A DNA stretch of 64,000 nt from Naegleria gruberi. Its lineage: Eukaryota. Positions 10,931 through 45,143 of this stretch are shown in pieces; positions within the stretch are counted from its first letter, which is position 1; the number at the start of each line of letters is the position of its first letter. The stretch lies in assembly GCA_000004985.1 (NCBI GenBank), contig GG738866.1. One strand, given 5' to 3'. The translations under genes and the position numbers were made by a program. The notes beneath the pieces are model-generated. The model did not search any database. It saw only the letters and a program-made list of their open reading frames with translations, and had not been told where the DNA came from.

Positions 10931-12058
10931 ATGTTTCATTCCATCTTCTCATATTTGTGGTGGATTTTCCCAACCCGATCCGAAAATCTTTATGCATCTT
11001 TATTGAAGAATAGCATTGATGAGAATGACTTCAAAGCAGGAATATTGGAAAGTCTCTCATTGGATATTGTGATCGAGATTATATCCTTTCTCGATCGGTT
11101 TGAATTTATCAGATTGTTTTCAGGAGTGAATAAATCCTTCTATTCATTAACAGAGGATAAAAGATTCTGGTTAATATTAGACCGTCATGATGAGAAAATT
11201 CCTACTGTTACACAACCAAATTCAAACTTCCAACCAATACTATGTTTTTCAAGAATTGAAGAATATCTCAAATCTTCTGAAAAGACAAGTTTCAAAACCA
11301 TTTACAAGAACCTTCTCCTCTCCCCTACCCCACACGAATTGAATCCAGTCTTTAAAAATCGTTCTGCAATTTATAATGTTGACACAGATCTCATTCCTGA
11401 AACAAAGAAATATATTGCCCTCTTTGGACAATCAAATTCTGGAAAATATTCTCTGGGAATTTGCTCTACGAGAGGTTATTCAAGGCCTAGTGATCAGAAG
11501 AGTGTTATCAAGATGGATTTCTTCTTCAAAAGAGTACTGATCAAGATGGAAAATCTATCCTCTCATCATAATGGAAATATTAGTGGAATATGCCATACGA
11601 ATTTTGTAATTGAATGTTTTGGACATCCTGATTTTCATTTGAAATTTAGAAATAATGGAATGGTTAGCATGAATAGTTTATCACTGGGTAGTAGTCTTTC
11701 AATCATGTTTACAATTGATTTATCAGTGAAAAATAATTATTTTCTCTCTGATTTATCCAAAATTTTGAATCCTTTATTTCAAGTTGATATTTCCAAAGAT
11801 TCTCCTCAGAAAATTAGAAAGAAAATGGGTAATAATAGACTCTGTATAATTGGAACCAAGAGTGATATTAGACAATTGAGTGAACAATCTCTGGCAAGTC
11901 AACTGATGAAAGTTATTGACACAAGTTGTGAATTTTGGGATCAATCCATCATTTACATTGAAACAAGTTCCAAAAATCGTGAAAATATGGATCATCCCTA
12001 TCTATTCTTTTCTCAATCCAACATTCATTCCCAAATCCAACCAAACTCATCCCTGTAA
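10931..12058 (+). CDS. F-box-like protein fused to a degenerate Ras-superfamily GTPase-like domain
   Basis: F-box-like LDIVIEIISFLDRFEFIRLF...FW. Downstream are G1-like ALFGQSNSGKYSL, G3-region ECFGHPDF, G4-like IIGTKSD (NKxD with N to T) and G5-like ETSSKN. The order and spacing match a small GTPase. Confidence 0.45.
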   Translation: MFHSIFSYLWWIFPTRSENLYASLLKNSIDENDFKAGILESLSLDIVIEIISFLDRFEFIRLFSGVNKSFYSLTEDKRFWLILDRHDEKIPTVTQPNSNFQPILCFSRIEEYLKSSEKTSFKTIYKNLLLSPTPHELNPVFKNRSAIYNVDTDLIPETKKYIALFGQSNSGKYSLGICSTRGYSRPSDQKSVIKMDFFFKRVLIKMENLSSHHNGNISGICHTNFVIECFGHPDFHLKFRNNGMVSMNSLSLGSSLSIMFTIDLSVKNNYFLSDLSKILNPLFQVDISKDSPQKIRKKMGNNRLCIIGTKSDIRQLSEQSLASQLMKVIDTSCEFWDQSIIYIETSSKNRENMDHPYLFFSQSNIHSQIQPNSSL

Positions 12059-12329
12059 ATATAATCATCACTCCACAATCTCTTGGAATTCAATTTAACC
12101 TTAAGATTTTATCAGAAACTAACTCCCAACCAATCCAGTTATCAACTCCAACCCCTCAAAAACTCCAAAAATCCAATACTACTACCACCATCACCACTTT
12201 TTACAATATTCTTTTGTGTTCACACAAAACGCGAAAATTTCTCGCTCTCTTGAAGTTTCACGATTTTCAAAAGGTTGAAAAATTGTAGGCGCCTTCCGCT
12301 ATTGGCAAAAAGAATCAAAGAATAAAAAA

Positions 12330-14213
12330 ATGGCTTCATATCATGACGAAGAGGAGGATGATAATGTTGCTACCAAGTTACTTGTACCGACATCAGGTGG
12401 AAGTGGTACTACTAACACTGAAAGTTTGAATAAACAATCTGAAAATTCAGTAATGATGGGAAGTGGTGGTAATCAATCATCGTATGGTACTACTGGATAT
12501 GGTACTGGTAAAGGTGTTGAAAATGATGGTGGTGCTGGTGATGGTGAGACCAGGCTCTGCTACTTATTATGATGATGAGGCTATAAAACAAGTTTCACGA
12601 AAGAAGATTACTTGGAGACAAGTTTTTGATTTTTCTAAAAAGTGGTTGGCTCTTATTGTGGGTTGTTTGATGATGTTAGTTTCGGGAACACAATATACAT
12701 ATTCATCAATTAGTCCAACAATCAAGAGGTAGGTTAATTTTCAACATTTGTGTGTGAATAATTCCATTTTTCTAATTATGATATGATGAAATATTTGGGT
12801 TTAACAATTATTGGTGTGAAAACTAACATGCTACAGAACTTTGGACTATTCACAGACTGAGGTCACAACTATTGCAGCTTTTGCAAATCTTGGAACTTAT
12901 TTCAGTTTGCCAATTTCTCTGGTGAATGACTTTTTCGGAGCAAGAGTTTGTTCCATCGTTTCGGCATTCCTCTTCTTTGCAGGATACTTTTTATTTTTAC
13001 TCTTATATACTGGAATCATGCCAAATCACTACCTTGTGGCTGGTCTCTTCTTTATGATTATGGGTAGTGGTTCAGCTGGAGGTTATTTGGCTTCAATTTC
13101 AACAAATTTGAAGAACTTTTCAGAGAAGAATAGAGGATTGGTTGTTGGTGTGTTGGCTTCATGCTTTGGATTGTCAAGTTTCGTCTTTTCATCAATTTAT
13201 ACCTATGTCTTTTCAGGAGAATTGGAAGGATACTTGTATTTCACAGCAATTTTTGGAACTGTTGTCATTTTCTCTGGATGTATTTTCATGAATTCTATTG
13301 CAAAGAAGGAGGAACCTAAAAAGGAGGCAGAAAAAACTCTCTTGCCACCACCACAGGAAGAAATTCAAGATCAACAACAAGAGGAAGGTGCAGTTGTGAC
13401 CTATGAGGAAGCAGCTGAACCACAAGTAGAAAAGAAGGTATATGCTGATATTAGTGCAAACAAGTCATTGGAACCTCCAGTTAATAATCCTTTTGGAATG
13501 CTCATGACTCTGGACTTTTATATAATGTTTATTGTGTACATGATTGGATCAGGATGTGGTTTGGTTATTATCAACAATTTGGGAGCTATTGTCATTGCTT
13601 ATGGAGGTTACAATGGTCAACAAAATTTGATGGTTCAATTATTGTCAATCTTGTAAGTTTGAATAATTGATTGGATTTAACTGAATTATGATAATTTAGC
13701 AATTGTCTTGGAAGAATTGCGTTTGGATTTTTGAGTGATAAATTCCTTCTTCCAAAGTATCACCTTACCAGAGTTACCTTTTTCAATATTGCTGTATTGA
13801 TGATGGGTGTTATGCACTTTATTTTTGCTTGGGCTCCAGTCAATTCATTGTACTTTTTCATTTGTGTAATGGGTTTCTTCAATGGTGGTATTTTCTCACT
13901 TGCACCAAGTTTCTGTTCTGAAAGATTTGGAGCTAAATATTTTGGTATGAACTTTTCAATTATGAATTTGGCAGCTGCTTGTGGAAGTTATGGATTGGCA
14001 ACATTTGTCACTGGTCAATTATATCAAATTAATATTGATGCACCAAGAACTACCACATGTCATGGCCATGACTGCTTCCAATTGACATTCTTTATCACAT
14101 CATCATTGTGTGGTTTTGCTTTCATTCTAGGATTATTTTTACAATATAGAACGAGATGGGTGTATTGGATTTTCTTCAGAAGAAGAATTACCCAATCCAA
14201 GAAACAAGTTTAA
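12330..14213 (+). CDS. nodulin-like major-facilitator-superfamily transporter, 4 exons (12330..12543, 12593..12728, 12837..13652, 13700..14213)
   Basis: About 12 predicted TM helices and the GTQYTYSSIS nodulin-like N-terminal motif. Introns are 12544..12592 (49 nt, GTGAGA..AG), 12729..12836 (108 nt, GTAGGT..CAG) and 13653..13699 (47 nt, GTAAGT..TAG). Each joins overlapping ORFs in frame. Confidence 0.65.
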
Positions 14214-14242
14214 TCTCATTAAATTTAACTTATTTTTCCAAT

Positions 14243-14969
14243 TTATTTTCCAAATATCAGTTTTTCAATTAGAAAATTCCACAAAATTCCAAACAGAGTT
14301 ATTGAATTATCATTTCGAATATCCACACTTGTCGGCGATGATATCGATCCTGATCCAGTTGATGAAAAATCTTGCATCATCATGGTCGAATTGACAATTG
14401 TTCCATTCAAATTTCCAGAATCCATTCCCTCTGATTTTGAATCAGAAATATAAACTCCCAAGAAGAGAGCCATTGCCACCAAAATTGCACACGTATGCAA
14501 TGTAATAAATGTAAAGAAACCAATGACAAGTCTTTTCCTTGACATTCTCTGTCTTGTAGTAGGTGGTTTGATTCATCATGGAGGATGGATTTTCCTTTCC
14601 CTCCTCCATCATCATGACTAGATGATTACTATCTGAAAAGGAAACACCTGAAACTGATGATTTGGATGGTTCATTCGAATAATAATTTGCAATATCAATG
14701 TGATGATCGTGGGAATTTTGATCCAATTGTTGTTGATGGTGAATTTGAAGTGGAGGAATTGATGGCAGTTGTATACTTATTGGATTCGGAGAAGTTTCCA
14801 AGTCTTGTCCATGTTTCGAATATGATTGTGTATCAGAAAATGGTTGTTGTAAGAAAATTGAATCATTAGTTGGAGGTGAAAATGGAGAACATGCAACAAT
14901 ATTATTAAACCTTTCGTGAGGTTCACCACTTGGTGATGCTGTCAACGCAATTGTTGTTGGTTTTGACAT
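14243..14969 (-). CDS. small Ser/Pro/Gln-rich protein with one C-terminal TM helix; two overlapping ORFs, junction unresolved
   Basis: ORF 14969..14442 (Q/S/P-rich) and ORF 14545..14243 (MSRKRLVIGFFTFITLHTCAILVAMALFLGVYI TM segment) overlap in different frames. The join is a short intron or a frameshift that I could not place. Confidence 0.3.
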
Positions 14970-15764
14970 TCGAATAGTTTCGGGTTAGAAATGTGTTGAG
15001 TTTTTTTCTGCACTTTGTTTTTTAGCTAACAAGTGCAAAGTGACAGATGGGTTTTTTTCTGGTAGTGTTCCACTAAATGGTTCTTTGATGAGTGGAACTA
15101 AGCTTGATGATGATCACGTGATGTGCTGCAAAGTTGTGTGTAATTTTTTTTAAAGTTTCTTTCTTCTACTTTCTGCTAGTTTCCAATAGTTACAATCATG
15201 ACAATCCAGAATGGAAATTCAATGGTTTTCAAATTAGCCGAACAGTCTTTTGCTTGCCATATTTTTTAAATAATTCAATATTTTGGTTTTGTTTGTTCAA
15301 ATTTGGTGGCTTCTTATCTTGTTGATATCATCAAGACTTTACAAAATATTGATAATTGTTCAATGCACAGTTTCAGTTTTAGAAAGTTTGCTTTCGTTCT
15401 CTTTGAACTGGAAGTGTACTTATTGGAAATCAAGTTTAGAATTGAAAATATTTATTGGAAACCACAATCCTGTACGAAACCAAAGATTATTTATGAATTA
15501 AAACATTTTTCTTAATGGAGAGTTGATCTGAAAATAAGGAACTTAACTGCAAATTATTCCATAGCTGGGGGAAACTCTGGTCAAGGTGTTGAATGGTTTC
15601 TGATATTTTTGAAGTTTAGTTTTAATTATTTTAATGTTTCTTTTTAATTGGTTATTGTGGATTCTTTTGGAAATTGGTCGAATTGGGTTTATTATAATAG
15701 CATTTTGAAGTTAAGTTTGTGAAATAGTATTGGAACTAATGAACTTGTCAATTAGTGAAAAAAA

Positions 15765-16795
15765 ATGTCAAAACTTGAAAAACTTTCCTTTCAATTTTTT
15801 GATAAATTACCAGAAGAAATTTTGAGTGAAATTGGGAATTTTCTATTGCTTGGTGAATTTCACAAGTGGATGTTGGTGAATCGAATAGTATATCAGAAAC
15901 TTTGTTCCGATGCTTGTTATTCGAAATTTTATTGGAGGGAAATTAAGTATCATTGCAATGCAGATGAGAAGAAATATGTAATTTACAATCCAGTAACTTT
16001 AGAATATCACTCTAATGTGCATTCACTTTATTCTATTTATGGAAAAGTTTCGTCTAATTTTCGATATCATCTCTTGCAGTTTAAAAAGGAAATTTCGAAT
16101 AACAAACCCAACTTTTCATTCACTCCCATTGAGAACATGATGGAAATCAATCCAAAACTCCAAAAATCATTAGAAAAAGATGAATTTCCAGGATATGGAA
16201 AGATTTGCCTTATTGGAAACTCAACATGTGGCAAAACTTCACTTTATTGGAGAGTTCATACTCGAGAATTTCAAGAAACTTTTTGGTATACTTCAGATAA
16301 TCCCAATTTAGTGTATGAAAATTTTCTGATGTCATTGTGGGACCTTCCCTGTAGAGATGGGTAAGTTTCGTTTTATTTAGAATATTTTGAGATTAATCTC
16401 AATCAAGATATGATCAATTGAGAACTTTGTCGTATCCAGAAGCACACTTGGCTCTCGCTTGCTTTTCACTTGTGGACAGAGATTCATTCGATTCTATTCG
16501 AAACAAGTGGATTCATGAATTGAGATTCCACTTGAAAGATACTCCAATTATTCTGGTTGGTTGTAAACATGATTTAAGAGAAGAAATCATCAAATCATCA
16601 ACACATCAAGATAACCAATCAATTGTAACAAGTGAGGAAGCAGAGGAATTCGCCAAAAGTTTCGGATTTATATCCTATTGGGAGAATTCCTCTAAAAGTG
16701 GATTTGGGATGAAGAATTTTATGGAAATTTTAGTAAATGGGTGCACCTATCAACCGAATATTGTAAAACCAAAGAAAAAGTGTTTAATTCAATAA
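15765..16795 (+). CDS. F-box-like protein fused to a Rho-family pseudo-GTPase ending in a CaaX box; intron 16361..16407
   Basis: N-terminus LPEEILSEIGNFLLLGEF...YW is F-box-like. After removing the 47-nt GTAAGT..CAAG intron the protein reads ICLIGNSTCGKTSL...WDLPCRDGYDQLRTLSYPEAHLALACFSLVDRDSFDSIRNKW...PIILVGCKHDL...ENSSKSG...KKCLIQ*. This is collinear with RhoA (LVIVGDGACGKTCL...WDTAGQEDYDRLRPLSYP...CFS...VGNKKDL...CSAK...CLVL). Switch II DTAGQE is replaced by DLPCRD and NKxD by CKHD. Confidence 0.7.
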
Positions 16796-16880
16796 TAATT
16801 ATTAGAATTTAAATTTATTGTAAACTTGAAATTATTAGAAAGTGTTATTGTTGAACTAGAATCTGGAAAATTCAGAAAAA

Positions 16881-17732
16881 ATGTCACCACACAATGATTA
16901 CACTACCATTCCAATAGAAGAATCAGAGATTAATTTACATTACTCACAAACTAATTCTTCCGAAACATTAAATTCATCATTATTAAATCTCCCGCCAGAA
17001 TTATTAACATTAATTATTGAATATTTATCAAATGATAATGTTGCACTGCTGTCATTCGAATTACTCGGAATAACTGCACGAGAAGTAATGAATAATCAAG
17101 TGTGGGAAAAATTATTTAGAAATCAACAAATTTCGTCCAAGTTTTTGGGTTTCGACTGGTTTATTTTACCGAATCAGTATCTTGTTGAACTGGTCAAGAG
17201 AAAATCAGAAAATCCACACAAAATTGCATTTTATTATCATTTCTACATGAATGGAATTATTACACAATTTCTAGATTATGAAATTTCGGATATAATTTAC
17301 AATTTCAGATATTCGAATAGAAGTAACGTATTTCAAATTGAAAAATCATTAATCCCATTAAGGAAATATTTTGAAGAAATGAATAGGTTTCATTTCTATT
17401 CAAATAGAAGACCAATTAATATTTTACTTTACAAAACTCAATTAGAAATTGAAATGAAACGTTGGATTAATTTCAAGAAGAAACCAGGCGAAATACTTCA
17501 CCAATACCGTCGCCACACCTATACCTCTTGCTTTATCCTCCTAGTAGTAAGCCCAATTATTGGAATTGGCTCTTTAGGAATGATTTTGGTTGGTGGAATT
17601 AGTTTCAAATATCCAACGTTTAATTCAGAACTTGGCGCCATCTCACTCATCATTATTGGATGTTTCATTTTGTTGATATCAGTTGTGGGATTACTTGTTT
17701 CAACCAAGTACATTTGTTCTTACAGAGATTAA
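16881..17732 (+). CDS. F-box-like protein with C-terminal transmembrane anchor (two hydrophobic helices)
   Basis: LNLPPELLTLIIEYLSNDNVALLSF...VWEKLF is F-box-like. The C-terminus has FILLVVSPIIGIGSLGMILVGGISF and ISLIIIGCFILLISVVGLLV hydrophobic segments. Confidence 0.5.
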   Translation: MSPHNDYTTIPIEESEINLHYSQTNSSETLNSSLLNLPPELLTLIIEYLSNDNVALLSFELLGITAREVMNNQVWEKLFRNQQISSKFLGFDWFILPNQYLVELVKRKSENPHKIAFYYHFYMNGIITQFLDYEISDIIYNFRYSNRSNVFQIEKSLIPLRKYFEEMNRFHFYSNRRPINILLYKTQLEIEMKRWINFKKKPGEILHQYRRHTYTSCFILLVVSPIIGIGSLGMILVGGISFKYPTFNSELGAISLIIIGCFILLISVVGLLVSTKYICSYRD

Positions 17733-17747
17733 CTTCCATGAATTGGA

Positions 17748-19092
17748 CTAGACCTGATTACTTGATTGTTCTTGGTTTTTTGGTTCTTCATTAGTTTCTG
17801 GTAGATTAGGTAAATTGTCGCCAACAAGTTCCTCATCGTTCTTGTCTTTTGATTGATCTTGATTTGTAACCTCACTAGTTTCTGGTAGGGATGGTAAATT
17901 TTCTTCAATATTCGATTTGCATTTCGATAAACCCTCACTTGGTTCAATTGACTGAACTTTCATTTCACTCTTCTCTGATCGTTCTGATTTCTTAGCAGTA
18001 CTTCTTGCTGACTTGTGATCATGAGATGTGGTATCTAAATTCATCTCCTTAATAGCATGTTCTGCCCTCACAAAAAGTGGATAAAACATCAACAAGCTCA
18101 ACACTGCAAATATCAAAACTGCAAGACAACTGAAAAAGTGCCAAACAACTTTCAGAATTGACTTGTCAGAACCAACGGCAGATGCAACACCAGCTGCAAT
18201 TAATTGACATAGAATGCATAGGATTAATCCAACCAATAATCCAAAAGTTACAATGAATGGATTTGAATAATTTTCCTGTTTTTTAAGGTTTGGATTTCTT
18301 TGTAATTGAATCGTATTGTTTCGTCCAATTGTACGAATCACCACAACACCAGAATAGATGGCAAAGCAAGTATCGAAAATAAGCATTCCACCAGCAAAAA
18401 CAAAACAGATATAATAGGCAATATTAGAATTAGCTTTCGAAACGAAACCCATGTTATAGAGGAAGAATAAAAGAGCTGCAACTAACACTACAAGAAACAT
18501 TAACACAACAAAGAAGCCAAAGATGATATTGGAGAGAATGCTCACATGCTTGAATTGCTTTTTCGACATGGCTCTAATCATGACAGCTGTCTTCCAACTA
18601 CAAGTTTCGAATAATTTAGCATTAAAAGAGAAACTTACAAGATCATTTTGACGTAATATACAATAATGTACAAGACTACATAATTTGAAAACATTAAGAA
18701 TGTAGTCACTGATGCAAAAAAGTTCCAAACAATAAAGTATCCTCTATCGAATATTGTTTCTCCCTTCTCCAGTCGAAACCTCACATTAATATACATGATA
18801 TCAACCATTGTTCTTGAAAGTAGATTCAAGCATCCAATACCAACGAAAACACCGACCATCAGAAAGAGAATTTTTGCATTCCTTTTCAATTCAAGCTTAT
18901 TTCGAATAGTAATATAGTACAGCATTGTAAAGAAACTCATATAAAATATCGAATAGGCAAACAAGTACAATGTACTATTCCCTATCGAAACAGAATTGAC
19001 CCACACTGGTAAAACATAATCCACCGAGGTAATATGACATTCAGACCATCTGAAGTATATTCGAAAGGGAGTAAAGATAATGACGCCATTTT
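17748..19092 (-). CDS. multi-pass membrane protein with acidic Ser/Glu-rich tail, unknown function; at least 2 exons, junctions unresolved
   Basis: ORFs 19024..18635 and 18728..17748 overlap in different frames. At least 7 hydrophobic helices. A possible upstream ATG lies at 19092 (MASLSLLPFEY...). No recognisable conserved family. Confidence 0.35.
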
Positions 19093-19167
19093 TTTGAATT
19101 TGCTTGTCGAAGGGTCTTATTTTGAGTAATTGATGTCGTATGAATAAGAGAGATAAGTTGTTTTTCA

Positions 19168-19475
19168 GTCATGATGTGTTTCAGTATTGCGTGATGCTAA
19201 CTTGTTTTGGAAGTGTTGAGATTGGAAATTTTGGCATTTTTAATTTGCATCTCAAGCAATGGGCATTTTGTGCTGTTATTGGCAGTGGATGAGGGTTTTC
19301 TTTTTGGGAGTTTGGTAATTATTACCATTCCTTTATTCATTAAAACAGTCTGCTGCATTAATCAGTACGCAGACGGTGTAAAAACCACCATGATCGAGGT
19401 CAATCTTGACTCTGAAGGCTCTCTTTACTGAAAATGAGATATTTCATTAAGTTAAAATTTTCTTAATGAATATAA
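19168..19475 (+). repeat. conserved tRNA-Glu upstream module, copy 1 (carries a ~130-nt insertion relative to copy 2)
   Basis: ATGATGTGTTTCAGTATTGCGTGATGCTAAC...TTTTGTGCTGTTATTGG...GAGGGTT...TTTTTGG aligns to 25201..25385. The proximal 40 nt (ATGAATATAATCCCGTG) are also shared with copy 3. Confidence 0.6.
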
Positions 19476-19547
19476 TCCCGTGTAGTCCAATGGCTAGGAT
19501 ACCTGGCTTTCACCCAGGAGGTCCGGGTTCAATTCCCGGCATGGGAG
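19476..19547 (+). tRNA. tRNA-Glu (anticodon UUC)
   Basis: 72-nt cloverleaf TCCCGTGTAGTCCAATGGCTAGGATACCTGGCTTTCACCCAGGAGGTCCGGGTTCAATTCCCGGCATGGGAG. Anticodon loop is CTTTCAC. A T-run terminator follows (ATTTTG). Confidence 0.9.
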
Positions 19548-19641
19548 GATATTTTGCATTGAATTTTTAATTGTTGTTAAAGTTCAATACTTTATTTAAT
19601 TCTCATGTTATTTTACAGGTAATTAGAGAAAAATTTGTCAA

Positions 19642-20640
19642 CTATTTTACAAGTGGTTTGACGATTGGTTTTGTTGGCTTCTTACATGTCTTTCTCTTGA
19701 TACAAATCTTCTTCTTGATTGACTTGCAGCACTTCTTCTTTCCACCAACTAATTTGAATTTCTTACAAATCTTCTTTCCCTTTGAACGTTTCAAACACTT
19801 CTTATAATACTTCTTCTTGATACATCTTGGAGGAATGACAATTGACTTGGCACAATACTTCTTCTTGTTATATTTGACACATTTGGAGAGAGTCTTCTTG
19901 TGTTTACAGAATTTGATGGTCTTATGCTTGGCGCAGAAGAATTTCTTCTTAATGAGACAACACTTCTTGAAAGATTTTCTTTCCTTGCAGTATTTAACCT
20001 TCTTATACTTGGCACATTTCTTTGCCCAGGAGACAATCTTGCACTTTTTAACATATCTACATTTGGCAACCTTCTTATTGTAAGAATCAACAGTGTACTT
20101 GTCGCAGACCTTCTTCTTTTCACACTTCTTGATTGGAACCTTCTTGAATTTCTTACAGACCTTCTTGAAACCCTTCTTGAAGCACTTATTGATAATCTTG
20201 TGCTTGGCACAGAACTTCTTGAAACCCTTCTTGATGCAAATCTTCTTAGTTCCATAAGAATCACAAACTTTCCAATACTTCTTCTTGGCACATCCAACAA
20301 TCTTGTATGCATGCAAGACACACTTCTTTGTTGGCTTACTGTACTTGTCACATTTGGAATATTTCTTATGTTTAAGACATTTACCAGCACCGACAATTGC
20401 ATATTGATCACAGACCTTCTTTTGACCAACGAGTTTGTGTTTCAAACACTTCTTAATCCACTTGTGCTTTAAACATTTTCTCTTACAAATTCTTGGCTTG
20501 TGATACTTGTCAACTACTGGAGGATTGGTTTGATAGCTGTCACTTGCTTGAACTGAAAGGATTGCAAGCAAGAGTAGAATTGCAATTGAAAAGATTAGAT
20601 TTGCTTTCATTTTTTGTTTTTGTTGGATTGGATAGTTCAA
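19642..20640 (-). CDS. secreted Lys/Cys-rich repeat protein, no recognisable homolog
   Basis: Signal-peptide-like MKANLIFSIAILLLLAILSVQA. The mature part is about 35% Lys and 15% Cys, with KKCxKHK / CAKHK units recurring roughly every 8-10 residues. The ORFs on other strands and frames here are by-products of the nucleotide repetitiveness. Confidence 0.5.
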   Translation of the reverse strand: MNYPIQQKQKMKANLIFSIAILLLLAILSVQASDSYQTNPPVVDKYHKPRICKRKCLKHKWIKKCLKHKLVGQKKVCDQYAIVGAGKCLKHKKYSKCDKYSKPTKKCVLHAYKIVGCAKKKYWKVCDSYGTKKICIKKGFKKFCAKHKIINKCFKKGFKKVCKKFKKVPIKKCEKKKVCDKYTVDSYNKKVAKCRYVKKCKIVSWAKKCAKYKKVKYCKERKSFKKCCLIKKKFFCAKHKTIKFCKHKKTLSKCVKYNKKKYCAKSIVIPPRCIKKKYYKKCLKRSKGKKICKKFKLVGGKKKCCKSIKKKICIKRKTCKKPTKPIVKPLVK

Positions 20641-21011
20641 CCAGATGGTGCTAATTTAAACCATTTCGAATTGTTTTTCATTTGGGACAAGCTGAAAATA
20701 GTTGGATGTAAGGTTCCAAATTTGGATAGAAAACTGATTCAATTTACTATTCAAATATCAACTCAGCTTTCCAAAGTATTCTACTTAATTCATGTATTCG
20801 AATTTCATGAGAGAATACTGTTAAATGTTTAACAGAGAACATTTGATATTGTTTTGTGACCAATCGACAGTCTGGTTTTTTCAGTCATTTGTAAAAAAAT
20901 AGTCATTAAGAACAAGAAAATTCTAGGCATGGAGGATAATTTTTTATTTTTATGAAAATTGTTGGATAAATGATAATGAATTAATTGAGGAATGAAGAGT
21001 TTATGAGATTG

Positions 21012-22020
21012 TTAAAACATAGAATCTTGTTTTTGTGTGCGTCTGACTAAAATATTTGGATTGTGCTGAAAGAGTGAGGTTTCAAAATTTGTTTTTCTAT
21101 TTTGGTGGTTTTCAATATTTTCTGATTGGTCTTTCCTGTTTTGGTTCTCAATATCAAACTCACAACACAAGAAACACATGAAACAAATCGCAATAATGTT
21201 GATTGATATTACAATACCATTGATAATACTACAAGCTATAATAGCTCCATTTGGCTTTTTGTTTTTATCAACTGTTCCAAACACAGCTAACAATCCAAAA
21301 TCTACAAAAACTGCCAAGAATGAAAGAAGCACAATCCAATAATTATAAAAAAAACCCATTCTTTGTTTGTCCTTAGTTAAAAACTTGATAAAATCAGAAA
21401 CCCAATGAAGGATGAAAGTACCAACAATTGTCCATCCAAATATTGAACTAATTGATTCATTATACTGTATAAAATTATATGATAACTTGATGAGCCATCT
21501 ATTTGTAAACTCCATAAGAACCTAGTCAACCATATTCCAATTACAACAATATGAAGGTGAGGATTATTTTCTTTAAAGCCATCAAATTTCTTCTTATATT
21601 CCTCAAAGTGGTTTGAAATAACGTTTCGACAAACTTTTCGTCCTTTCTTTTGCAAAAGTGGAAAAAGAGCATGAAACACACTAATAGAACCAAAACATCA
21701 AAAATGACTGTTTCAAAATTGTAAATTGAAGAACCAAACCAAATAGCAGAATTGATAATTAGCATTACCAAGCAGCCATATCCAATCTTATGTGGGTGAT
21801 CATAATCAATACCTAGAAAGATAGTGAAAATAAAGAAAACAGTGAACAATAAACTAAAGATGGCACCCATACTGTCAGTAGAATCAATATTTTGCTGATC
21901 ACCACTTGCAATAATATTAAACAGATCCAAAATGGTTCTATTCTTCGGCTTGATATTTACAAGAACAACTGTAACACAATTAAGTGCTAGCATAATACTA
22001 GAGAAGGACGCTTTGCCCAT
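21012..22020 (-). CDS. multi-pass membrane protein, unknown function; 3 overlapping ORF segments (short introns, junctions unresolved)
   Basis: ORFs 22101..21541, 21679..21377 and 21515..21012 are each rich in hydrophobic helices. Likely start is MGKASFSSIMLALN (ATG at 22018-22020). Confidence 0.35.
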
Positions 22021-22605
22021 TTTTTTGTTATGGTTTACACGTGTTGTGTAGATGTAACGAAAATTTTCAGTGTTGATGCATGTGAATGATCCTCCACACA
22101 TGTTGTTGATGATTGTTATGGTGTAACAACGCCGCGGCTGCTATAAGAAATTACATTGCGTTAATGAAGAGTCGTTTTTTTACCATTTTTTTTCTTCATG
22201 AATTTTACAATTATTTTCACAATCGTATGAAAGAAGAGCGACAATTTTTATATGAATTGAAATTAAGGAATTACACCTGTTTTTAAGGGTACATACATTT
22301 GGAGAATCAACTTTAAGGTTTAATTTCGGAGGATCAAATACGATTGATTATTGATTCATTTGTTGAAGGAATGGCAGAACCAAAGAAGTGGTTCAGCAGC
22401 CATGAAAATTAAGGTTGTGGTTCCACCAGAGGGAAATCACTCTACATGAATTGGTACCTCGATCCTTGTGAGTCTTTCCACTTTTCAGTATATGTGGATA
22501 ACGAATGATACGTAAAGGCTGGTCCTTGCATTGCGTACAGAAAAGGTTTCTAACACCAACTTGGTTAATATCAACGAATTACAAAGTTTCTGACATGGTT
22601 TGAAA

Positions 22606-23817
22606 TCACTGGAATAGTTTTTTAAATACATCTATTAATTTTGAAAGCATATGAAGTGAATAATCGAGTAGATCATCGTGCACCTGCTCAATCTTTCTGT
22701 AATTGAAATTTTTTAGATGGGAGAATGAATGTTGAGAAATTGAGCAATGAAATCTACGAATATCATCTGCAGAGCTCAATTCAAATTGTAATTCTCTCAA
22801 ATTCTTGAAAACTTGCTTGCCTATCAGAATTTTAACATGATTCAATCTTAGTAGAACATTTCCAAACCTTAATACTTTTAACTGCTCTAAATTGTCCAAT
22901 TGATTGAGGAAAAGTTCAATAGATGTATAATTATTAGATACATTATATAAATTTTCAAGAGTAATTTCCTTCAATTTGGAAAATTTTGAATTACAAATAG
23001 TTTCCAATATTTGTAAATTAATATGATATGATAACTTCAATATTTCAATATTAGAACACAATTCAGACATTAGAGTATTTACAATTGATAAATCGCTATA
23101 AATATTGGCCAGTGATAATTTTTTAAGGTTTCCAAAATTGGAAAATGTATCTGAATTATTCCATTCATGAATAATACATGAATTCAAAGATAAACTTTCA
23201 ATATTTTTGAAACATTCTTTCTCTGATAATGATGATGAACTAAGCATAAAACTTCCAAGTTCCAGACGTTTTAAACTTGCTAAATAAGGACTATCAAACA
23301 TTTCAATATCGAAATAATGCTCTCCATAAACTTCATCTGAAATTATCAAAGTTTCAAGATTTTTCATTCGACTTCCAACAATCAATTCAATTCCGCACAT
23401 TGGATTTCTCCAATATTGATCATATGGATCGTGTGTTCTTAATTCCAAATAGTTCAATTCGAAAGTTTCAACAATCATTTTCAACAGTTTCGTATGAGTT
23501 GAATATCCAATGATTGTAACTCCTCTCACATTTCTACAATTCTCTCCTTTCAATTTTTCAATCCACTTATCGACAATTCTTTCGTCAACATCTTGTACTT
23601 CGCTATCGAACCAAACATACGAATCTTCCACATTAATCGTTAAAAACAGTGGAATTTTCAAAGAATGTGAGTACCAATTCTTATTCACACGATTACAATT
23701 TTTCAAAATTTGCTCTCCGCTCATGTAATTTAATATTAAATTTAATATTAAATCATCAAAAATTGCATCACCGGATTCAGGTGAACATTTCATGATGTAT
23801 GTTTTCATTTTTTCCAT
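22606..23817 (-). CDS. F-box-like / leucine-rich-repeat protein
   Basis: N-terminal FDDLILNLILNYMSGEQILKNCNRVNKNWY is F-box-like. The C-terminal half has LRRs (LKRLELGSF, IESLSLNSC, LKKLSLANI, IEILKLSYHINL, LKEITLENL). Confidence 0.6.
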   Translation of the reverse strand: MEKMKTYIMKCSPESGDAIFDDLILNLILNYMSGEQILKNCNRVNKNWYSHSLKIPLFLTINVEDSYVWFDSEVQDVDERIVDKWIEKLKGENCRNVRGVTIIGYSTHTKLLKMIVETFELNYLELRTHDPYDQYWRNPMCGIELIVGSRMKNLETLIISDEVYGEHYFDIEMFDSPYLASLKRLELGSFMLSSSSLSEKECFKNIESLSLNSCIIHEWNNSDTFSNFGNLKKLSLANIYSDLSIVNTLMSELCSNIEILKLSYHINLQILETICNSKFSKLKEITLENLYNVSNNYTSIELFLNQLDNLEQLKVLRFGNVLLRLNHVKILIGKQVFKNLRELQFELSSADDIRRFHCSISQHSFSHLKNFNYRKIEQVHDDLLDYSLHMLSKLIDVFKKLFQ

Positions 23818-23881
23818 TTAAAAATTCGAAATGAAACTAAATAAATTAATATTAAATTTTATTATAAGAAACCATATTTTC

Positions 23882-25039
23882 TTAATCACTGAAACATACA
23901 CTAGCGTGATATTCATAGAATTGATAAAGAACTACTTCGAAGGGATTTTCCATATTGTTGGGATTGACAATTAAGGAAATAATATAGCTATCAATGGCAT
24001 CACCTAAAAGTTGTGAATTGAAGGATCGTTCAACTTTCATAAATGTTGTGTAACTTGTAATGTTTGGATCTTCATTCCATTTCGCCTTTGTATTTTCATT
24101 AAATTCGTCCAAAATTTCCAAAGTGTTCAAGTTATAAGGACAACATTCAGCAATGTTATCGTAAAATGTAATTCGATGAAGATCATGCACATAGTAATTG
24201 ATTCGAAATAGAAAGTTCAACATCATTTGAAGAAGGTATTGATTGTGTAAAATTCCACATTCATGACATGTCAAAACTAGTTCTCTAATCCAATGAATGA
24301 AATTTTTAGCACCTTTCATTTGGTTTCCATTGGAAGGGGCAACTTCAAATTGATTATACGAAAGGCAAATTACATTTCTCACTAAATTGTGTTCGTATGA
24401 AGTGTCATCATTGGGGATGCCAACGAGCTCTGTACAATTCTCATTATGGTAGAAACCCTCTTCCAACTTTTGAATGAGAATATATTCAGAACGATTCTTT
24501 TTGTTTCTTCCTGTAAACAGTTGGTCAGCTGAGGAAAATTTTAATCCCAAATGATTACTATATCCTTCGTCATCACATTCCTGATGCCAAACCATTGAAT
24601 AATCTGCAAAATAATTTAAATTACCTATCTCTACATCCTTAGAATTATTCCTCTTGGTCACATTAATGCAATCACAAAGTATCCACTTGCTCATTTGAAA
24701 AATCTTATCATTTTCTATATTGAATGAAGGTTTACATTTGTAAAACTTGAATTCATAACGAGGAATCATCATTCCTTCATTAATAGCTGCAACACATTTA
24801 GAAAGAAACACAATAAATGGCATTGCACGTTGGTAATCAATCAAATGATGATCAATCTTCAAGTTTTCTGAGTGAGAATTATTCAAACTCTTGTTTAAAT
24901 GTTGAAAGTACAAATAAAAGTGTTTTGTAATTAAATCTCTCCATTCTGTGCACACGAATTTGCAATTTAAAATTTGTTTCCATGATAAATAGCCATCAAA
25001 TAGAATGGTCAGCAGAATGTCCTGATTGTTGGCTATCAT
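23882..25039 (-). CDS. F-box-like domain protein with unknown C-terminal domain
   Basis: DILLTILFDGYLSWKQILNCKFVCTEWRDLI at the N-terminus. The remaining ~330 aa is Cys/His/aromatic-rich with no match I can name. Confidence 0.45.
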   Translation of the reverse strand: MIANNQDILLTILFDGYLSWKQILNCKFVCTEWRDLITKHFYLYFQHLNKSLNNSHSENLKIDHHLIDYQRAMPFIVFLSKCVAAINEGMMIPRYEFKFYKCKPSFNIENDKIFQMSKWILCDCINVTKRNNSKDVEIGNLNYFADYSMVWHQECDDEGYSNHLGLKFSSADQLFTGRNKKNRSEYILIQKLEEGFYHNENCTELVGIPNDDTSYEHNLVRNVICLSYNQFEVAPSNGNQMKGAKNFIHWIRELVLTCHECGILHNQYLLQMMLNFLFRINYYVHDLHRITFYDNIAECCPYNLNTLEILDEFNENTKAKWNEDPNITSYTTFMKVERSFNSQLLGDAIDSYIISLIVNPNNMENPFEVVLYQFYEYHASVCFSD

Positions 25040-25200
25040 AGTGAAGTTGCAACAATTAACAGTCTATACTGTGAAGATATTTTTTTCAGGAGTGTGTAAC
25101 CTCTAAAGATTGAGTCAATAGATATTTAATTAGCATCTTCAATACTGTTTTAAAAAAGGGGATACTACATACTTTTTAATTTCATTAAGGAAATGTGAAT

Positions 25201-25385
25201 GTAATGATGTGTTTCAGTATTATGTGATGCTAACACTTGTTTGGAAATTTTGGCAATTTTGATTTGTGTCTTGTTTTGTGCTGTTATTGGTTATTGGTGA
25301 GGGTTGACTTTTTGGAATTTTGGATTTTACAATCTCGTTCTGAATCATAAATTTCATGAGGGTCAAAGTTTCATAATGAATGTAA
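25201..25385 (+). repeat. conserved tRNA-Glu upstream module, copy 2
   Basis: AATGATGTGTTTCAGTATTATGTGATGCTAACACTTGTTTGGAAATTTTGGCAATTTTGATTTG...TTTTGTGCTGTTATTGGTTATTGGTGAGGGTTGACTTTTTGGAATTTTGG. About 80% identical to 19168..19330 with indels. Confidence 0.6.
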
Positions 25386-25457
25386 TCCCGTGTAGTCCAA
25401 TGGCTAGGATACCTGGCTTTCACCCAGGAGGTCCGGGTTCAATTCCCGGCATGGGAG
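25386..25457 (+). tRNA. tRNA-Glu (anticodon UUC)
   Basis: Identical 72-nt sequence to 19476..19547. Followed by AATTTTTG. Confidence 0.9.
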
Positions 25458-25899
25458 GATAATTTTTGTTGCAAAGTTATTTGTGATTGTTTATTGGGGT
25501 ATTATTGGGTACTTTTTTATGATTTCCTCTTCACTACAATTCTCAAATATGTTTGCTTGCAAGAAAATGTATTGCCTTAATTCCAATAATTTTCGAATTT
25601 TTGAAGAGAATTTACAATTTCTTCTTCATGAATGATATACGATTCGGTATTGGATAGCCTATCACGTTTTGGCACAATATTGTGCTGTTTCTGCTTCTAT
25701 AAAATTATTACGCACCAAAAGTTTTGAAATTTAGATTGTAAAGTCTAATTCTACATTTACTAAAAAAACTCCATATTAGCATCATACTACTATTAGTTAA
25801 TACCATCTCCAAAATAGGACCTCATCAAAAAATACTAATTCAAAACAATAACAATCATTCTTAAAATAAACTTTAAAAAATACATCAACTTCTCACATA

Positions 25900-27537
25900 A
25901 TGAAACCACCAAGTATTGGTATTTCAATCACCAATCTCTCCTTGAATTTTGATAAAAAGATCATATTTGAGGATTTGGATTTTTCACTCTCTGTTGGAGA
26001 TAAGGTTACAATTGTAGGTGATAATGGTAGTGGAAAGACAACTTTTTTACGATTGTTGAGTGGCACTGTCGATTATTCATATTCGGGCACTGTTGAAATT
26101 GAGGGAAGAATTGGATATTTGCCTCAACATTTTGAGGACATAATGAGTGATGAGCCGACCATTGTTACCATTCTACGATATTTGAATGATGCTAATATTA
26201 ATCAATTTCTTGAACAATCCAATTGTGAAAAGCTATCTTCGGAATGGTATCAAGAATTGAATTCTTTGGGAGGATACGAGATATTTAAACATGCACATTT
26301 GATTGGATTGACAAATAATTTATTGGAGGAACCTTTTAATCAGTTGAGTGGTGGAGAAAAGACGAAAACAATGTTGTGTGCATTGAGTATTATTGAGACT
26401 GATATTTTACTGTTGGATGAGCCGACTAATCATTTAGATAGAAAGGGAATTGAGTGGCTGGAAGACTTTTTGAAGGAATATGATGGATCTGTAATCATGG
26501 TTACTCACGATAGAAGTCTAATTAATGCAGTTTCTAATAGAATTTCCGAACTATCTCCACATACTAAAAAGTTTGCGCACTTTAGAGGAGGATATGATAA
26601 TTATCTGATGCAGGAAGAAAAGAAACGTTTAAGATCTATTCAAGAACGTGAGCATCAAGATAAGGAATTGAAAGCTCTTAAACAAAAGGCAACTCAACTC
26701 AAATCTAATATGAAAGAAAAGAAAATTAGAGAAAGTTGGGATAGAGACAAGATTAGTCACAACAATCAAGAACAAAGAGTTCAAAAGGGAACATCTAAAG
26801 CATTTAATCGTTTCACTAGGAAACAAGAAAGCATCACAGAAAACATGGTTGAAATTATTCCAGAAAGAGCCAAAATTTCATTTGAATTTGATGACAGCAA
26901 TATTACAACCAATCTTCATATTCTAGTTTCGAATCTTTCGAAATCGTTTGGAGATAAATTGCTGTTTCGTGACTTGTCCTTCACTTTGGTGAGTGGTGAT
27001 AGAATGATTGTTCAAGGACCGAATGGTTCTGGTAAGACTACTCTATTTCGAATTATTATGGACTTGATAAAACCTGATGAAGGCACAAAGCAGGTCAGTA
27101 ATTCTGCTAGGATTGGATATTTGGATCAAGAGCAAGAAAGTTTACCATTGGACAAAACTGCAGTGGAACTGCTTATGGAAGATCCATTAATCAATGCCTC
27201 AAAGAAACAGGCTATTAATAATTTGTGTAATTATGGTGTCTATACATGGCAAGATTTGAATAATACCTTACGTGACTTGAGTATTGGATGTCGTAGAAAG
27301 GTACAATTGTGTCAAATTGTCATGAGAAAATGCTCAATTCTTTTATTGGACGAACCAACAAACCACATTGATTTTCCAAGTTTGGAAGTAATAGAGGAAG
27401 CATTGATGAATTTCCCTGGTGTTATCATTGCAGCCACCCATGACAGATACTTTATTGAAAAGGTTGGAACAGAAATAATTAACTTGACAGATTATAATGG
27501 GTCTAAAAAAGAGGAAGAAGACAATGATATTGAATAA
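25900..27537 (+). CDS. ABC-F family ATPase (two nucleotide-binding domains, no TMD)
   Basis: NBD1 has Walker A GDNGSGKTT, signature LSGGEKTK and Walker B LLLDEPTNHLD. NBD2 has Walker A GPNGSGKTT, a degenerate signature LSIGCRRKV and Walker B LLLDEPTNHID. A charged linker lies between them. Confidence 0.85.
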   Translation: MKPPSIGISITNLSLNFDKKIIFEDLDFSLSVGDKVTIVGDNGSGKTTFLRLLSGTVDYSYSGTVEIEGRIGYLPQHFEDIMSDEPTIVTILRYLNDANINQFLEQSNCEKLSSEWYQELNSLGGYEIFKHAHLIGLTNNLLEEPFNQLSGGEKTKTMLCALSIIETDILLLDEPTNHLDRKGIEWLEDFLKEYDGSVIMVTHDRSLINAVSNRISELSPHTKKFAHFRGGYDNYLMQEEKKRLRSIQEREHQDKELKALKQKATQLKSNMKEKKIRESWDRDKISHNNQEQRVQKGTSKAFNRFTRKQESITENMVEIIPERAKISFEFDDSNITTNLHILVSNLSKSFGDKLLFRDLSFTLVSGDRMIVQGPNGSGKTTLFRIIMDLIKPDEGTKQVSNSARIGYLDQEQESLPLDKTAVELLMEDPLINASKKQAINNLCNYGVYTWQDLNNTLRDLSIGCRRKVQLCQIVMRKCSILLLDEPTNHIDFPSLEVIEEALMNFPGVIIAATHDRYFIEKVGTEIINLTDYNGSKKEEEDNDIE

Positions 27538-44877: not shown

Positions 44878-44945
44878 TTTTTTAAGTTCACTTGTCTTGG
44901 TGTTTGGTTACTGCAAGACAGTTTTCTTTTAAAAATAAAATTATC

Positions 44946-45017
44946 CTCCCATGCCGGGAATTGAACCCGGACCTCCTGGGTGAAAGCCAGGTATCCTAGC
45001 CATTGGACTACACGGGA
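44946..45017 (-). tRNA. tRNA-Glu (anticodon UUC)
   Basis: Reverse complement is identical to the other two copies. On the minus strand it is followed by a T-rich run (GATAATTTTATTTTTAAAAG). About 40 nt of upstream sequence are shared with the other copies. Confidence 0.9.
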
Positions 45018-45143
45018 ATACATTCAAATTGAAAATATTACCCTCATCAAAATTATTTTTAATTTACATTGTGAATTGATTAGTTATTTTTTGATGGTTA
45101 TTATTGGTGGATACTTCTTTAATCACACAAAATCTTAATTTTA

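What the first reader, a model, noticed from the sequence alone, without database searches (positions are those of the whole stretch)
19642..20640. Secreted Lys/Cys-rich repeat protein without recognisable homologs
The 332-aa product has an N-terminal signal-peptide-like segment followed by about 35% Lys and 15% Cys. Short units (KKCxKHK, CAKHK, GFKKxC) repeat about every 8-10 residues. This composition is reminiscent of cationic Cys-stabilised antimicrobial or DNA- and polyanion-binding proteins, and of cyst-wall or extracellular-matrix proteins. The gene lies between a tRNA-Glu gene and a membrane-protein gene. The ORFs predicted on other strands and frames here (19791..20429, 19817..20083, 19900..20472) are artefacts of the repeat.
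Basis: partly seen in the sequence, partly recalled or inferred. Interest (0 to 1): 0.6.

Follow-up and report, generated by a model that had tools for sequence, protein, structure and literature searches.

The report
Naegleria lysine-rich disulfide-ladder hairpin protein
An unannotated Naegleria gruberi gene encodes a secreted, extremely lysine-rich protein whose 32 cysteines are laid out as a mirror image, which predicts a single ~40 nm two-stranded rod stapled by about 15 disulfide rungs; it belongs to an uncharacterised Naegleria-specific family and is most likely an extracellular (cyst-wall-type) building block.

Summary
With a eukaryotic ATG start, the CDS is 19642..20610 (-) and encodes 322 aa. 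It has one N-terminal signal-like segment. Lys is 33-35%. Cys is about 10% (32 residues), not 15%, with a strict 9-residue period (z=7.9).

The window is N. gruberi NEG-M itself, yet this protein is missing from its protein set. Homologs do exist: an 89% identical second copy (a chimeric model, NAEGRDRAFT_76199), at least 6 further N. gruberi paralogs, and N. fowleri and N. lovaniensis proteins. All are labelled "hypothetical". There are no Pfam, NCBIfam or PDB matches. An ortholog gives dN/dS 0.145.

Function is inferred only. The best guess is a cross-linkable, glycan- or polyanion-binding rod of an extracellular matrix such as the cyst wall. A cationic antimicrobial role is the main rival. 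No expression data were found.

The parts
19642..20610 (-). Complete single-exon CDS: 322 codons plus the stop codon at 19642-19644. Not represented in the N. gruberi NEG-M protein set.
   Evidence: ORF. First in-frame ATG. Homologs align only in this frame. dN/dS is 0.145 against the L002 ortholog. The exact sequence is absent from the protein collection, while neighbouring ORFs are exact NEG-M proteins.
20545..20610 (-). Signal peptide, residues 1-22 (MKANLIFSIAILLLLAILSVQA). Predicted cleavage is VQA|SD.
   Evidence: This is the only hydrophobic segment (KD 2.49, residues 5-23). All full-length family members have an equivalent N-terminus. The cleavage site follows the -3/-1 rule and is an inference; SignalP was not run.
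20488..20544 (-). N-terminal tail, residues 23-41 (SDSYQTNPPVVDKYHKPRI), with two D-x-Y motifs. Predicted disordered.
   Evidence: pLDDT <50 for residues 21-41. D-x-Y motifs.
20104..20487 (-). Left arm of the hairpin, residues 42-169, with 15 rung cysteines (42, 46, 55, 67, 78, 87, 97, 107, 116, 125, 134, 143, 152, 163, 169). Four C-D-x-Y motifs.
   Evidence: AF2 strands 46-61, 64-73, 78-90 and 94-169. Cys positions. Mirrored gaps. Segment table.
20062..20103 (-). Hairpin tip, residues 170-183 (DKYTVDSYNKKVAK).
   Evidence: Non-strand stretch 170-183 between the mirrored strands. The best palindrome centre is the 169-184 gap. The 'long' subfamily carries its extra ~40 residues, with extra paired Cys, here.
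19684..20061 (-). Right arm of the hairpin, residues 184-309, with 15 rung cysteines (184, 190, 199, 208, 217, 226, 235, 244, 253, 263, 272, 282, 294, 303, 309). Two spare Cys sit in CC doublets (218, 295).
   Evidence: AF2 strands 184-259, 263-275, 279-288 and 291-306 mirror the left arm with i+j of about 352-353.
19645..19683 (-). C-terminal Lys/Pro tail, residues 310-322 (KKPTKPIVKPLVK).
   Evidence: pLDDT <50 for residues 312-319. Paralogs carry (K)VD(T/S)YKPP(K)K repeats at this position.

Best explanation
This is a genuine protein-coding gene of Naegleria gruberi NEG-M under purifying selection, and it was missed by the genome annotation.

It encodes a secreted, ~35 kDa protein with a net charge of about +104. 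It belongs to a Naegleria-restricted, uncharacterised family.

The mature chain is predicted to fold back on itself once, forming a single two-stranded antiparallel β-ribbon. Each arm has ~128 residues, about 42 nm if extended. Fifteen intramolecular disulfide 'rungs' hold the ribbon together, one every 9 residues. The unit is φ-C-φ-K-(Y/H/K)-x-x-x-K.

Two spare cysteines lie in CC doublets. D-x-Y motifs (with Lys/Pro nearby) sit in both terminal regions of the open end and at the tip.

Inferred mechanism: the rod is an extracellular building block. It binds wall glycans or polyanions along its length, using Lys for charge and Asp plus Tyr for sugar contacts. Its spare thiols and Tyr/Lys-rich ends cross-link it into an insoluble matrix, most plausibly the cyst wall.

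Shown here: the gene, the selection, the family, and the Cys periodicity, palindrome and co-variation. Predicted: the hairpin fold. Inferred by analogy: the matrix or cyst-wall role.
For: Gene:
- Neighbouring ORFs are exact NEG-M proteins (NAEGRDRAFT_79633, _67221, eIF4A, _67209). This protein is absent from the collection.
- The ortholog on L002 has 243/314 identical residues, dS ~1.0, dN/dS 0.145, and keeps 30 of 32 Cys.
- Codon bias is the strongest in the window: AAG 76% against 49% pooled, and C-ending Y/F/I codons 48% against 28%.

Family:
-. Only ~20 true members were found among 1.84 billion representatives, and every named one is a Naegleria protein.
- All members have a signal-like N-terminus, pI of at least 9.2, a modal Cys gap of 9, and usually 32 Cys.

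Fold:
- The AF2 model rose from pLDDT 46.7 (9 sequences) to 80.1 (24 sequences), with 136 residues above 90.
- Strand breaks are mirrored at i+j of about 352-353.
- The Cys-gap series is palindromic, including the irregular gaps (6|6, 10|10, 12|12). P<0.0005 against permuted gaps, and the same holds in 11 of 13 other members.
- Mirrored Cys co-vary. C163 and C190 are present together in 6 sequences and absent together in 11. C42 and C309 are both lost in P0003. Extra tip Cys appear in sets of 4 or 6.
- Paired segments resemble each other when read N to C (CLKHKLVGQKKVC against CKKFKLVGGKKKC). Arm-versus-arm z is 3.7 with the Cys held fixed.

Function (indirect):
- The rung number is conserved (15 in both subfamilies) while Lys content ranges from 13% to 33%. 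This points to a defined-length structural element rather than a purely charge-driven effector.
- All 7 Asp lie in D-x-Y (shuffle mean 0.42, maximum 4 in 2000). The motif is enriched 4-6 fold in paralogs.
- Paralogs end in YKPP-type repeats.
- Spare Cys recur.
- Cyst-wall proteins of other amoebae are likewise multigene, secreted, Cys-rich and sometimes Lys-rich (PMC6541295).
Against: - No transcript, proteomic or localisation data were found for any family member. PMC9928731 states that stage-specific expression data for Naegleria are very limited.
- The fold rests on a shallow alignment (24 sequences), pTM is 0.26, and I could not inspect the coordinates.
- A 9-residue (odd) spacing would put alternate rungs on opposite faces, and on H-bonded as well as non-H-bonded pairs. 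Cross-strand disulfides normally use only non-H-bonded pairs (my knowledge). Bulges or a strong twist must therefore be assumed.
- K2-K7 cross-strand pairs would repel each other.
- L002 has lost C42 and C295 rather than a mirrored pair, so the pairing at the open end is uncertain.
- The cyst-wall assignment is analogy only, and a charge of +104 would suit an antimicrobial role equally well.
Confidence: 0.45

Rival explanations
1. The protein is a cationic antimicrobial or bacteria-binding effector. The polycationic rod is secreted, or delivered to phagosomes, and binds, agglutinates or permeabilises anionic bacterial envelopes. It would act as a giant analogue of disulfide-stapled β-hairpin peptides.
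For: - It has a signal peptide, a net charge of about +104 and a pI of 10.2.
- The predicted disulfide-bridged antiparallel hairpin is formally the same design as protegrin, tachyplesin and θ-defensin (my knowledge).
- Naegleria feeds on bacteria.
- The family is multigene and lineage-specific.
- Codon bias is compatible with high expression.
Against: - Rung number and rod length are conserved while charge is not. P0024 and P0026 have only 13% Lys and pI 9.2.
- No amphipathic membrane-active pattern was demonstrated.
- The size is about 15 times that of known hairpin AMPs.
- Spare Cys and YKPP-type ends suggest cross-linking.
- No activity data exist.
Confidence: 0.2
2. The protein is a cell-surface or substrate adhesive, or a glycocalyx or mucus-organising protein of trophozoites. 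The Lys/Tyr-rich rod would glue the amoeba to anionic surfaces or condense secreted acidic polymers, independently of the cyst.
For: - Lys/Tyr/Pro motifs (D-x-Y, and YKPP repeats in paralogs) recall Tyr-Lys-Pro adhesive and wall proteins (plus my knowledge).
- The protein is secreted and has no membrane anchor.
Against: - The window protein itself has no tandem YKPP repeats.
- There are no data on trophozoite secretion.
- The sequence evidence is the same as that used for the wall model, so this rival is not discriminated from it.
Confidence: 0.12
3. The hairpin model is wrong. The cysteines form local small knots or mainly intermolecular bonds, and the protein is an intrinsically disordered polycation. 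The AF2 β-ribbon would then be a low-complexity artefact.
For: - The 9-sequence model was poor (pLDDT 46.7).
- pTM is 0.26.
- There is an odd-spacing geometry problem (my knowledge).
- L002 lost a non-mirrored pair, C42 and C295.
Against: - The palindromic gaps (P<0.0005) and the co-gain and co-loss of mirrored Cys do not depend on AF2.
- Insertions in the long subfamily sit at the predicted tip.
- Pro- and Gly-containing irregular segments are mirrored.
Confidence: 0.15
4. The ORF is a non-functional low-complexity ORF or pseudogene, or the true gene lies in another frame or on the other strand.
For: - The gene is not annotated in NEG-M.
- Overlapping ORFs exist in other frames.
- The L002 ortholog carries one in-frame TGA.
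Against: - dN/dS is 0.145 overall and 0.10 downstream of the TGA, with dS of about 1.
- Thirty of 32 Cys are conserved.
- Homologs across three Naegleria species align only in this frame.
Confidence: 0.03

Closest known systems
Unnamed Naegleria 'predicted protein' family (NAEGRDRAFT_76199 C-terminal half, _67458, _64508, _48501, _64980, _71888, _74241; N. fowleri FDP41_004030 and FDP41_003065; N. lovaniensis C9374_000273)
   Same: These are true homologs: 89% identity over the C-terminal half to _76199, 45% full-length to _67458, and ~31-37% to the rest. They share the signal peptide, ~30-32 Cys with a modal spacing of 9, the same mirrored gap pattern, and D-x-aromatic motifs.
   Different: - The window protein is the most Lys-rich member (33% against 13-25%).
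- It lacks the ~40-residue tip extension of the 'long' subfamily.
- It lacks the terminal VDTYKPP repeats.
- It has no gene model.
- None of the family has a described function, domain entry or structure.
Cystine-ladder cationic β-hairpin peptides (θ-defensins, protegrins, tachyplesins, arenicins)
   Same: They share the design principle of two antiparallel strands bridged by parallel disulfides with a strong positive charge. This rests on my knowledge plus the prediction.
   Different: Those peptides have 16-25 residues, 2-3 disulfides and an even spacing on one face. This protein has ~270 residues, ~15 rungs and a 9-residue spacing. There is no sequence relationship, and activity is untested.
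Protist wall proteins with periodic or modular cysteines (Cryptosporidium/Toxoplasma oocyst wall proteins; Entamoeba Jacob; Acanthamoeba Leo and the Thr/Lys/Cys-rich region of Jonah)
   Same: They are secreted, multigene, Cys-rich and often lineage-specific. Some have Lys-rich segments. They bind wall glycans and become insoluble (PMC6541295; my knowledge for COWP).
   Different: There is no detectable homology (no Pfam hit at E≤10). Those proteins are strings of compact 6-8-Cys domains, not a single hairpin. Wall localisation of the Naegleria family is unproven.
Tyr-Lys-Pro structural and adhesive proteins (plant PPVYK proline-rich wall proteins, mussel foot protein decapeptides)
   Same: Paralogs end in (K)VD(T/S)YKPP(K)K repeats. 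The window protein has D-x-Y-x-K-P and K-P-rich tails. In those systems Tyr and Lys serve oxidative cross-linking (my knowledge).
   Different: Here the motifs are confined to short tails and the tip. There are no tandem decapeptide arrays in the window protein, and no evidence of oxidative cross-linking.
Very long β-hairpins of β-pore-forming toxins (lysenin, aerolysin, anthrax protective antigen)
   Different: Those hairpins exist only within oligomeric barrels, have no disulfide rungs and are amphipathic for membranes. TM-scores are ≤0.11.

Membership tests
Naegleria palindromic-Cys secreted family (unnamed; NAEGRDRAFT_67458 / FDP41_004030-like) | Significant full-length sequence similarity to family members | tested here: met
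   The single-sequence search gave E=1.1e-57 to P0003 and 6e-68 to P0002. Profile searches recover the family and essentially nothing else.
Naegleria palindromic-Cys secreted family (unnamed; NAEGRDRAFT_67458 / FDP41_004030-like) | N-terminal signal peptide and no other hydrophobic segment | tested here: met
   by hydropathy and the -3/-1 rule only. SignalP was not available.
Naegleria palindromic-Cys secreted family (unnamed; NAEGRDRAFT_67458 / FDP41_004030-like) | About 30-32 Cys with modal spacing 9 and a mirror-symmetric gap series | tested here: met
   32 Cys, with 14 gaps of 9. 10 of 14 mirrored gaps are equal, P<0.0005.
Cystine-ladder cationic β-hairpin antimicrobial peptides | Two antiparallel strands linked by parallel disulfides | tested here: inconclusive
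   Predicted by AF2 and supported by the Cys palindrome and co-variation. There is no experimental connectivity.
Cystine-ladder cationic β-hairpin antimicrobial peptides | Small size (about 16-25 residues, 2-3 disulfides, even Cys spacing) | tested here: not met
   The mature chain is 300 residues, with 15 predicted rungs at a spacing of 9.
Cystine-ladder cationic β-hairpin antimicrobial peptides | Antimicrobial activity | not testable with these tools
   Needs recombinant protein and MIC or agglutination assays.
Known cyst/oocyst-wall protein domains (CBM49, chitin-binding 6-Cys/8-Cys, CAA, COWP-type repeats) and any other Pfam/NCBIfam family | Match to a curated domain model | tested here: not met
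   0 Pfam families at E≤10 for the window protein. Nothing meaningful for 24 family members. 0 NCBIfam families. 0 PDB sequences matched the family profile at E≤10.
Known cyst/oocyst-wall protein domains (CBM49, chitin-binding 6-Cys/8-Cys, CAA, COWP-type repeats) and any other Pfam/NCBIfam family | Encystation-specific expression and wall localisation | not testable with these tools
   No paper or supplement held mentions the locus tags.
Tyr-Lys-Pro repeat wall/adhesive proteins (plant PRPs, mussel foot proteins) | Tandem arrays of a Tyr-Lys-Pro-containing peptide repeat | tested here: not met
   The window protein has isolated D-x-Y motifs and a K/P tail only. Short VDTYKPPKK arrays (3-4 copies) occur in paralogs P0005, P0008 and P0019.

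The most novel reading that the evidence does not exclude
The family represents a previously undescribed protein architecture. A whole ~300-residue polypeptide forms one two-stranded β-ribbon about 40 nm long, zipped by ~15 evenly spaced disulfide rungs with local dyad symmetry. This suggests origin from a self-pairing repeat strand. Naegleria would use it as a defined-length, polycationic strut or ruler of its cyst wall or other extracellular matrix. Alternatively it could be a new class of giant β-hairpin antimicrobials.
Probability: 0.45. Interest if true: 0.75.

Novelty: new variant of a known kind. Interest (0 to 1): 0.6.

Why it matters
Structure: if the prediction holds, this is an extreme and so far unseen use of the cystine-ladder hairpin principle. 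It would be a monomeric, nanometre-scale rod of fixed length, of interest to structural biologists and to designers of protein materials.

Biology: almost nothing is known about the proteins of the Naegleria cyst wall or secretome, including those of the pathogen N. fowleri, which has two or more family members. A lineage-specific, abundant extracellular protein would be a candidate diagnostic or cyst-targeting antigen.

Practical points:
- The gene is missing from the reference annotation.
- With Lys every 2-3 residues, only 7 tryptic peptides are ≥7 aa (22% of residues). Standard shotgun proteomics would largely miss it, which may explain why the family has gone unnoticed.

Tried and rejected
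- Tandem Repeats Finder found no DNA repeat that explains the periodicity; it reported only a 33-nt, 12-nt-period stretch.
- Genomic context is uninformative: F-box, LRR, MFS, ABC and multi-TM ORFs in a eukaryotic genome.
- The look-up of encoding contigs found nothing for P0002, P0003 or the window protein. The P0024 contig gave no taxonomic or functional clue.
No paper names the locus tags or the family, no Naegleria cyst-wall proteome was found, and no cyst-wall composition data were retrievable. The preprint I checked for expression tables holds no supplements.
- Profile hits P0035-P0038 were rejected as unrelated proteins that merely share 9-11-residue Cys-periodic repeats.
- The first AF2 run, with 9 sequences, was too poor to use.
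- A β-solenoid reading of the 9/18-residue period was considered and rejected, because it would not require mirrored irregular gaps.

Full report
**1. What is in the sequence**

The ORF listed at 19642..20640 (-) exists. Its TTG start is an artefact of the bacterial-code ORF rule. The first in-frame ATG is at 20610, which gives 322 aa, and orthologs start at the same MK.

The product has the following properties:
- It has one N-terminal hydrophobic segment (residues 5-23, ending VQA|SD) and no other.
- Lys is 33.2% of the precursor and 35.3% of the mature chain.
- Cys is 9.9% (10.7% mature), that is 32 residues.
- The mature protein is ~35 kDa, with pI 10.2, a net charge of about +104 and no N-glycosylation sequon.
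- Fourteen of 31 Cys gaps are exactly 9 residues. The lag-9 autocorrelation has z=7.9, with harmonics at 18, 27 and 36.
- The unit consensus is φ1-K2-(Y/H/K)3-x4-x5-x6-K7-φ8-C9, in this protein and in 178 units from paralogs.
- No DNA-level tandem repeat underlies this pattern, so selection on the protein maintains it.

tRNA-Glu(UUC) lies 95 nt downstream of the stop codon, and multi-TM ORFs flank the gene. Homologs align only in this frame, so the other-frame ORFs are by-products.

**2. Organism, annotation status and homologs**

Five other ORFs of the window are exact N. gruberi NEG-M proteins on a 469,335-bp scaffold: NAEGRDRAFT_79633, _67221, _79635, _67209 and eIF4A. The window is therefore NEG-M itself.

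This protein is nevertheless not in the 15-billion-sequence collection, and no ~100% hit appeared. The gene is unannotated.

Homologs do exist:
- NAEGRDRAFT_76199 is 89% identical over the C-terminal half. Its model is fused to SAM/PB1 domains that are not in this window, and it sits on a 39.8-kb scaffold. It is either a second copy or a haplotig.
- NAEGRDRAFT_67458 is 45% identical.
- Five further N. gruberi paralogs are 31-37% identical.
- N. fowleri has FDP41_004030 and FDP41_003065, and N. lovaniensis has C9374_000273.
- A few members come from metagenomes.

A profile scan of 1.84 billion representatives found only 24 hits. About 20 are true members. The rest are unrelated Cys-periodic repeats. 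Every named member is called 'predicted' or 'hypothetical'.

Pfam, NCBIfam and a PDB sequence profile gave nothing.

An ortholog on Logan contig L002 has 243 of 314 aligned residues identical, dS of about 1.0 and dN/dS of 0.145, and it keeps 30 of 32 Cys. The gene is therefore real and constrained. Its codon bias is the strongest in the window: AAG is 76% against 49% pooled. This is compatible with high expression, which is an inference.

**3. The structural finding**

Read outward from the 169-184 gap, the Cys gaps are:
- left: 6, 11, 9, 9, 9, 9, 9, 10, 10, 9, 11, 12, 9, 4
- right: 6, 9, 9, 9, 9, 9, 9, 9, 10, 9, 10, 12, 9, 6

Ten of 14 are equal, including the irregular 6, 10 and 12. No permutation of the gaps out of 2000 does as well. 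Eleven of 13 other members show the same mirror pattern. In the long subfamily, for example, 9, 17, 9... faces 9, 18, 9....

Mirrored Cys are also gained and lost together:
- C163 and C190 are both present in 6 sequences and both absent in 11.
- C42 and C309 are both missing in P0003.
- Extra Cys at the centre come in fours or sixes.

AlphaFold2 reached this arrangement from the alignment. With 9 sequences it gave pLDDT 46.7. With 24 sequences it gave pLDDT 80.1, with 136 residues above 90. Strands 46-61, 64-73, 78-90 and 94-169 are mirrored by 291-306, 279-288, 263-275 and 184-259, with i+j of about 352-353. This is one giant antiparallel hairpin with its tip at residues 170-183. Its three kinks fall in Gly- or Pro-containing segments on both arms.

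Paired segments resemble each other when read N to C, for example CLKHKLVGQKKVC against CKKFKLVGGKKKC. The arm-versus-arm score has z=3.7 with the Cys held fixed. This indicates local dyad symmetry. An origin from a self-pairing repeat is an inference.

Each arm of ~128 residues would span about 42 nm. Thirty Cys form 15 rungs. C218 and C295, in CC doublets, are spare, and spare Cys recur at other positions in paralogs.

Caveats:
- The alignment is shallow and pTM is 0.26.
- I could not view the coordinates.
- An odd spacing puts successive rungs on alternate faces and on alternate pair types. Regular cross-strand disulfides do not do this (my knowledge), so bulges or a strong twist are required.
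- L002 lost C42 and C295, which is not a mirrored pair, so the pairing at the open end is uncertain.

**4. How it probably works**

What is shown is a secreted, constrained, polycationic protein with mirrored, co-varying cysteines. What is predicted is a rigid, disulfide-laddered rod.

The inferred role is that of an extracellular structural element that binds glycans or polyanions and is cross-linked into a matrix, most plausibly the cyst wall. The reasons are:
- Rung number is conserved (15) while Lys content varies from 13% to 33%. This argues for a defined-length strut rather than a purely charge-driven effector.
- All seven Asp lie in D-x-Y (shuffle mean 0.42), and paralogs are enriched 4-6 fold in the motif. 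An Asp plus an aromatic residue on one β-face is a typical sugar-contact pair (my knowledge).
- The N-terminal tail and the tip carry D-x-Y motifs, and both tails are Lys/Pro-rich. Paralogs carry VD(T/S)YKPP(K)K repeats there. These recall the oxidatively cross-linked Tyr-Lys-Pro wall proteins.
- Spare thiols could form intermolecular bonds.
- Cyst-wall proteins of other amoebae are secreted, multigene, Cys-rich, lineage-specific and sometimes Lys-rich (PMC6541295).

The main rival is an antimicrobial or bacteria-binding polycation. An adhesive or glycocalyx role cannot be separated from the wall model on sequence alone. No expression or localisation data exist.

**5. Comparison with known systems and novelty**

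The gene is a new, unannotated member of an existing but uncharacterised Naegleria family. By design it resembles cystine-ladder β-hairpin peptides, but it fails their size and spacing criteria. By context it resembles protist wall proteins, but it shares no domain with them.

I rate it a new variant of a known kind: disulfide-stapled cationic hairpins, or periodic-Cys secreted wall proteins. There is a fair chance (about 0.45) that the architecture is new in its own right.

**6. Verdict**

- Interest: 0.6
- Confidence that the gene and family are real: above 0.95
- Confidence in the hairpin fold: about 0.75
- Confidence in a matrix or cyst-wall role: about 0.4

Noticed in passing
window 19476-19547 (+), 25386-25457 (+), 44945-45018 (-): There are three identical tRNA-Glu(UUC) genes within 26 kb. 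They share a conserved ~35-nt upstream element (TTTCATGAGGGTAAAATTTTCATAATGAATGTAAT-like) and a T-run downstream, and their flanks are otherwise unrelated.
   Followed up: partly
P0002 = NAEGRDRAFT_76199 (39.8-kb NEG-M scaffold), against window 19654-20109: The annotated N. gruberi model fuses an N-terminal SAM/PB1 protein to the C-terminal half of an 89%-identical copy of this gene. The SAM/PB1 part is absent from the window. It is probably a chimeric gene model on a haplotig or a recent duplicate.
   Followed up: partly
L002 632-634 (Logan contig SRR32051688_570309), aligned to window residue G106: The ortholog in a related Naegleria has a single in-frame TGA (GGA to TGA) just before a rung Cys. 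The 198 codons after it still show dN/dS 0.10. This could be a sequencing error, a very recent nonsense mutation or read-through.
   Followed up: partly
window 12058-25900: Only two protein accession numbers (EFC44765 and EFC44766) fit between the annotated genes at 10931-12058 and 25900-27537. Yet this stretch holds at least 6 long ORFs (16881-17732, 21012-21515, 21541-22101, 22606-23817 LRR-like, 23882-25039 F-box, and the gene studied) with no exact match in the protein collection. The region looks under-annotated, or is annotated with different exon models.
   Followed up: partly
P0036, P0037, P0038, P0035 (profile hits): These are unrelated proteins with long arrays of 9-11-residue Cys-periodic repeats, such as CDRHKLIGAGH about 25 times in P0036 and HEFCGDTQP arrays in P0037. 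They hit the profile weakly. They share the Cys period but show no mirror symmetry or homology.
   Followed up: no
L001 3836-5977 (P0024, ENA metagenome contig): This is a distant, much less Lys-rich family member (13.6% Lys). It carries an extra ~375-residue N-terminal region full of C-P motifs (such as KCPAGKK and ECPAVDQ) ahead of the hairpin module. It is the only multi-module architecture seen in the family.
   Followed up: no
window 19642-20610 (-): Trypsin would cut the mature protein into 108 peptides. Only 7 are ≥7 aa (22% of residues), and several of those contain Cys. The family is therefore likely to be nearly invisible in standard tryptic shotgun proteomics.
   Followed up: yes
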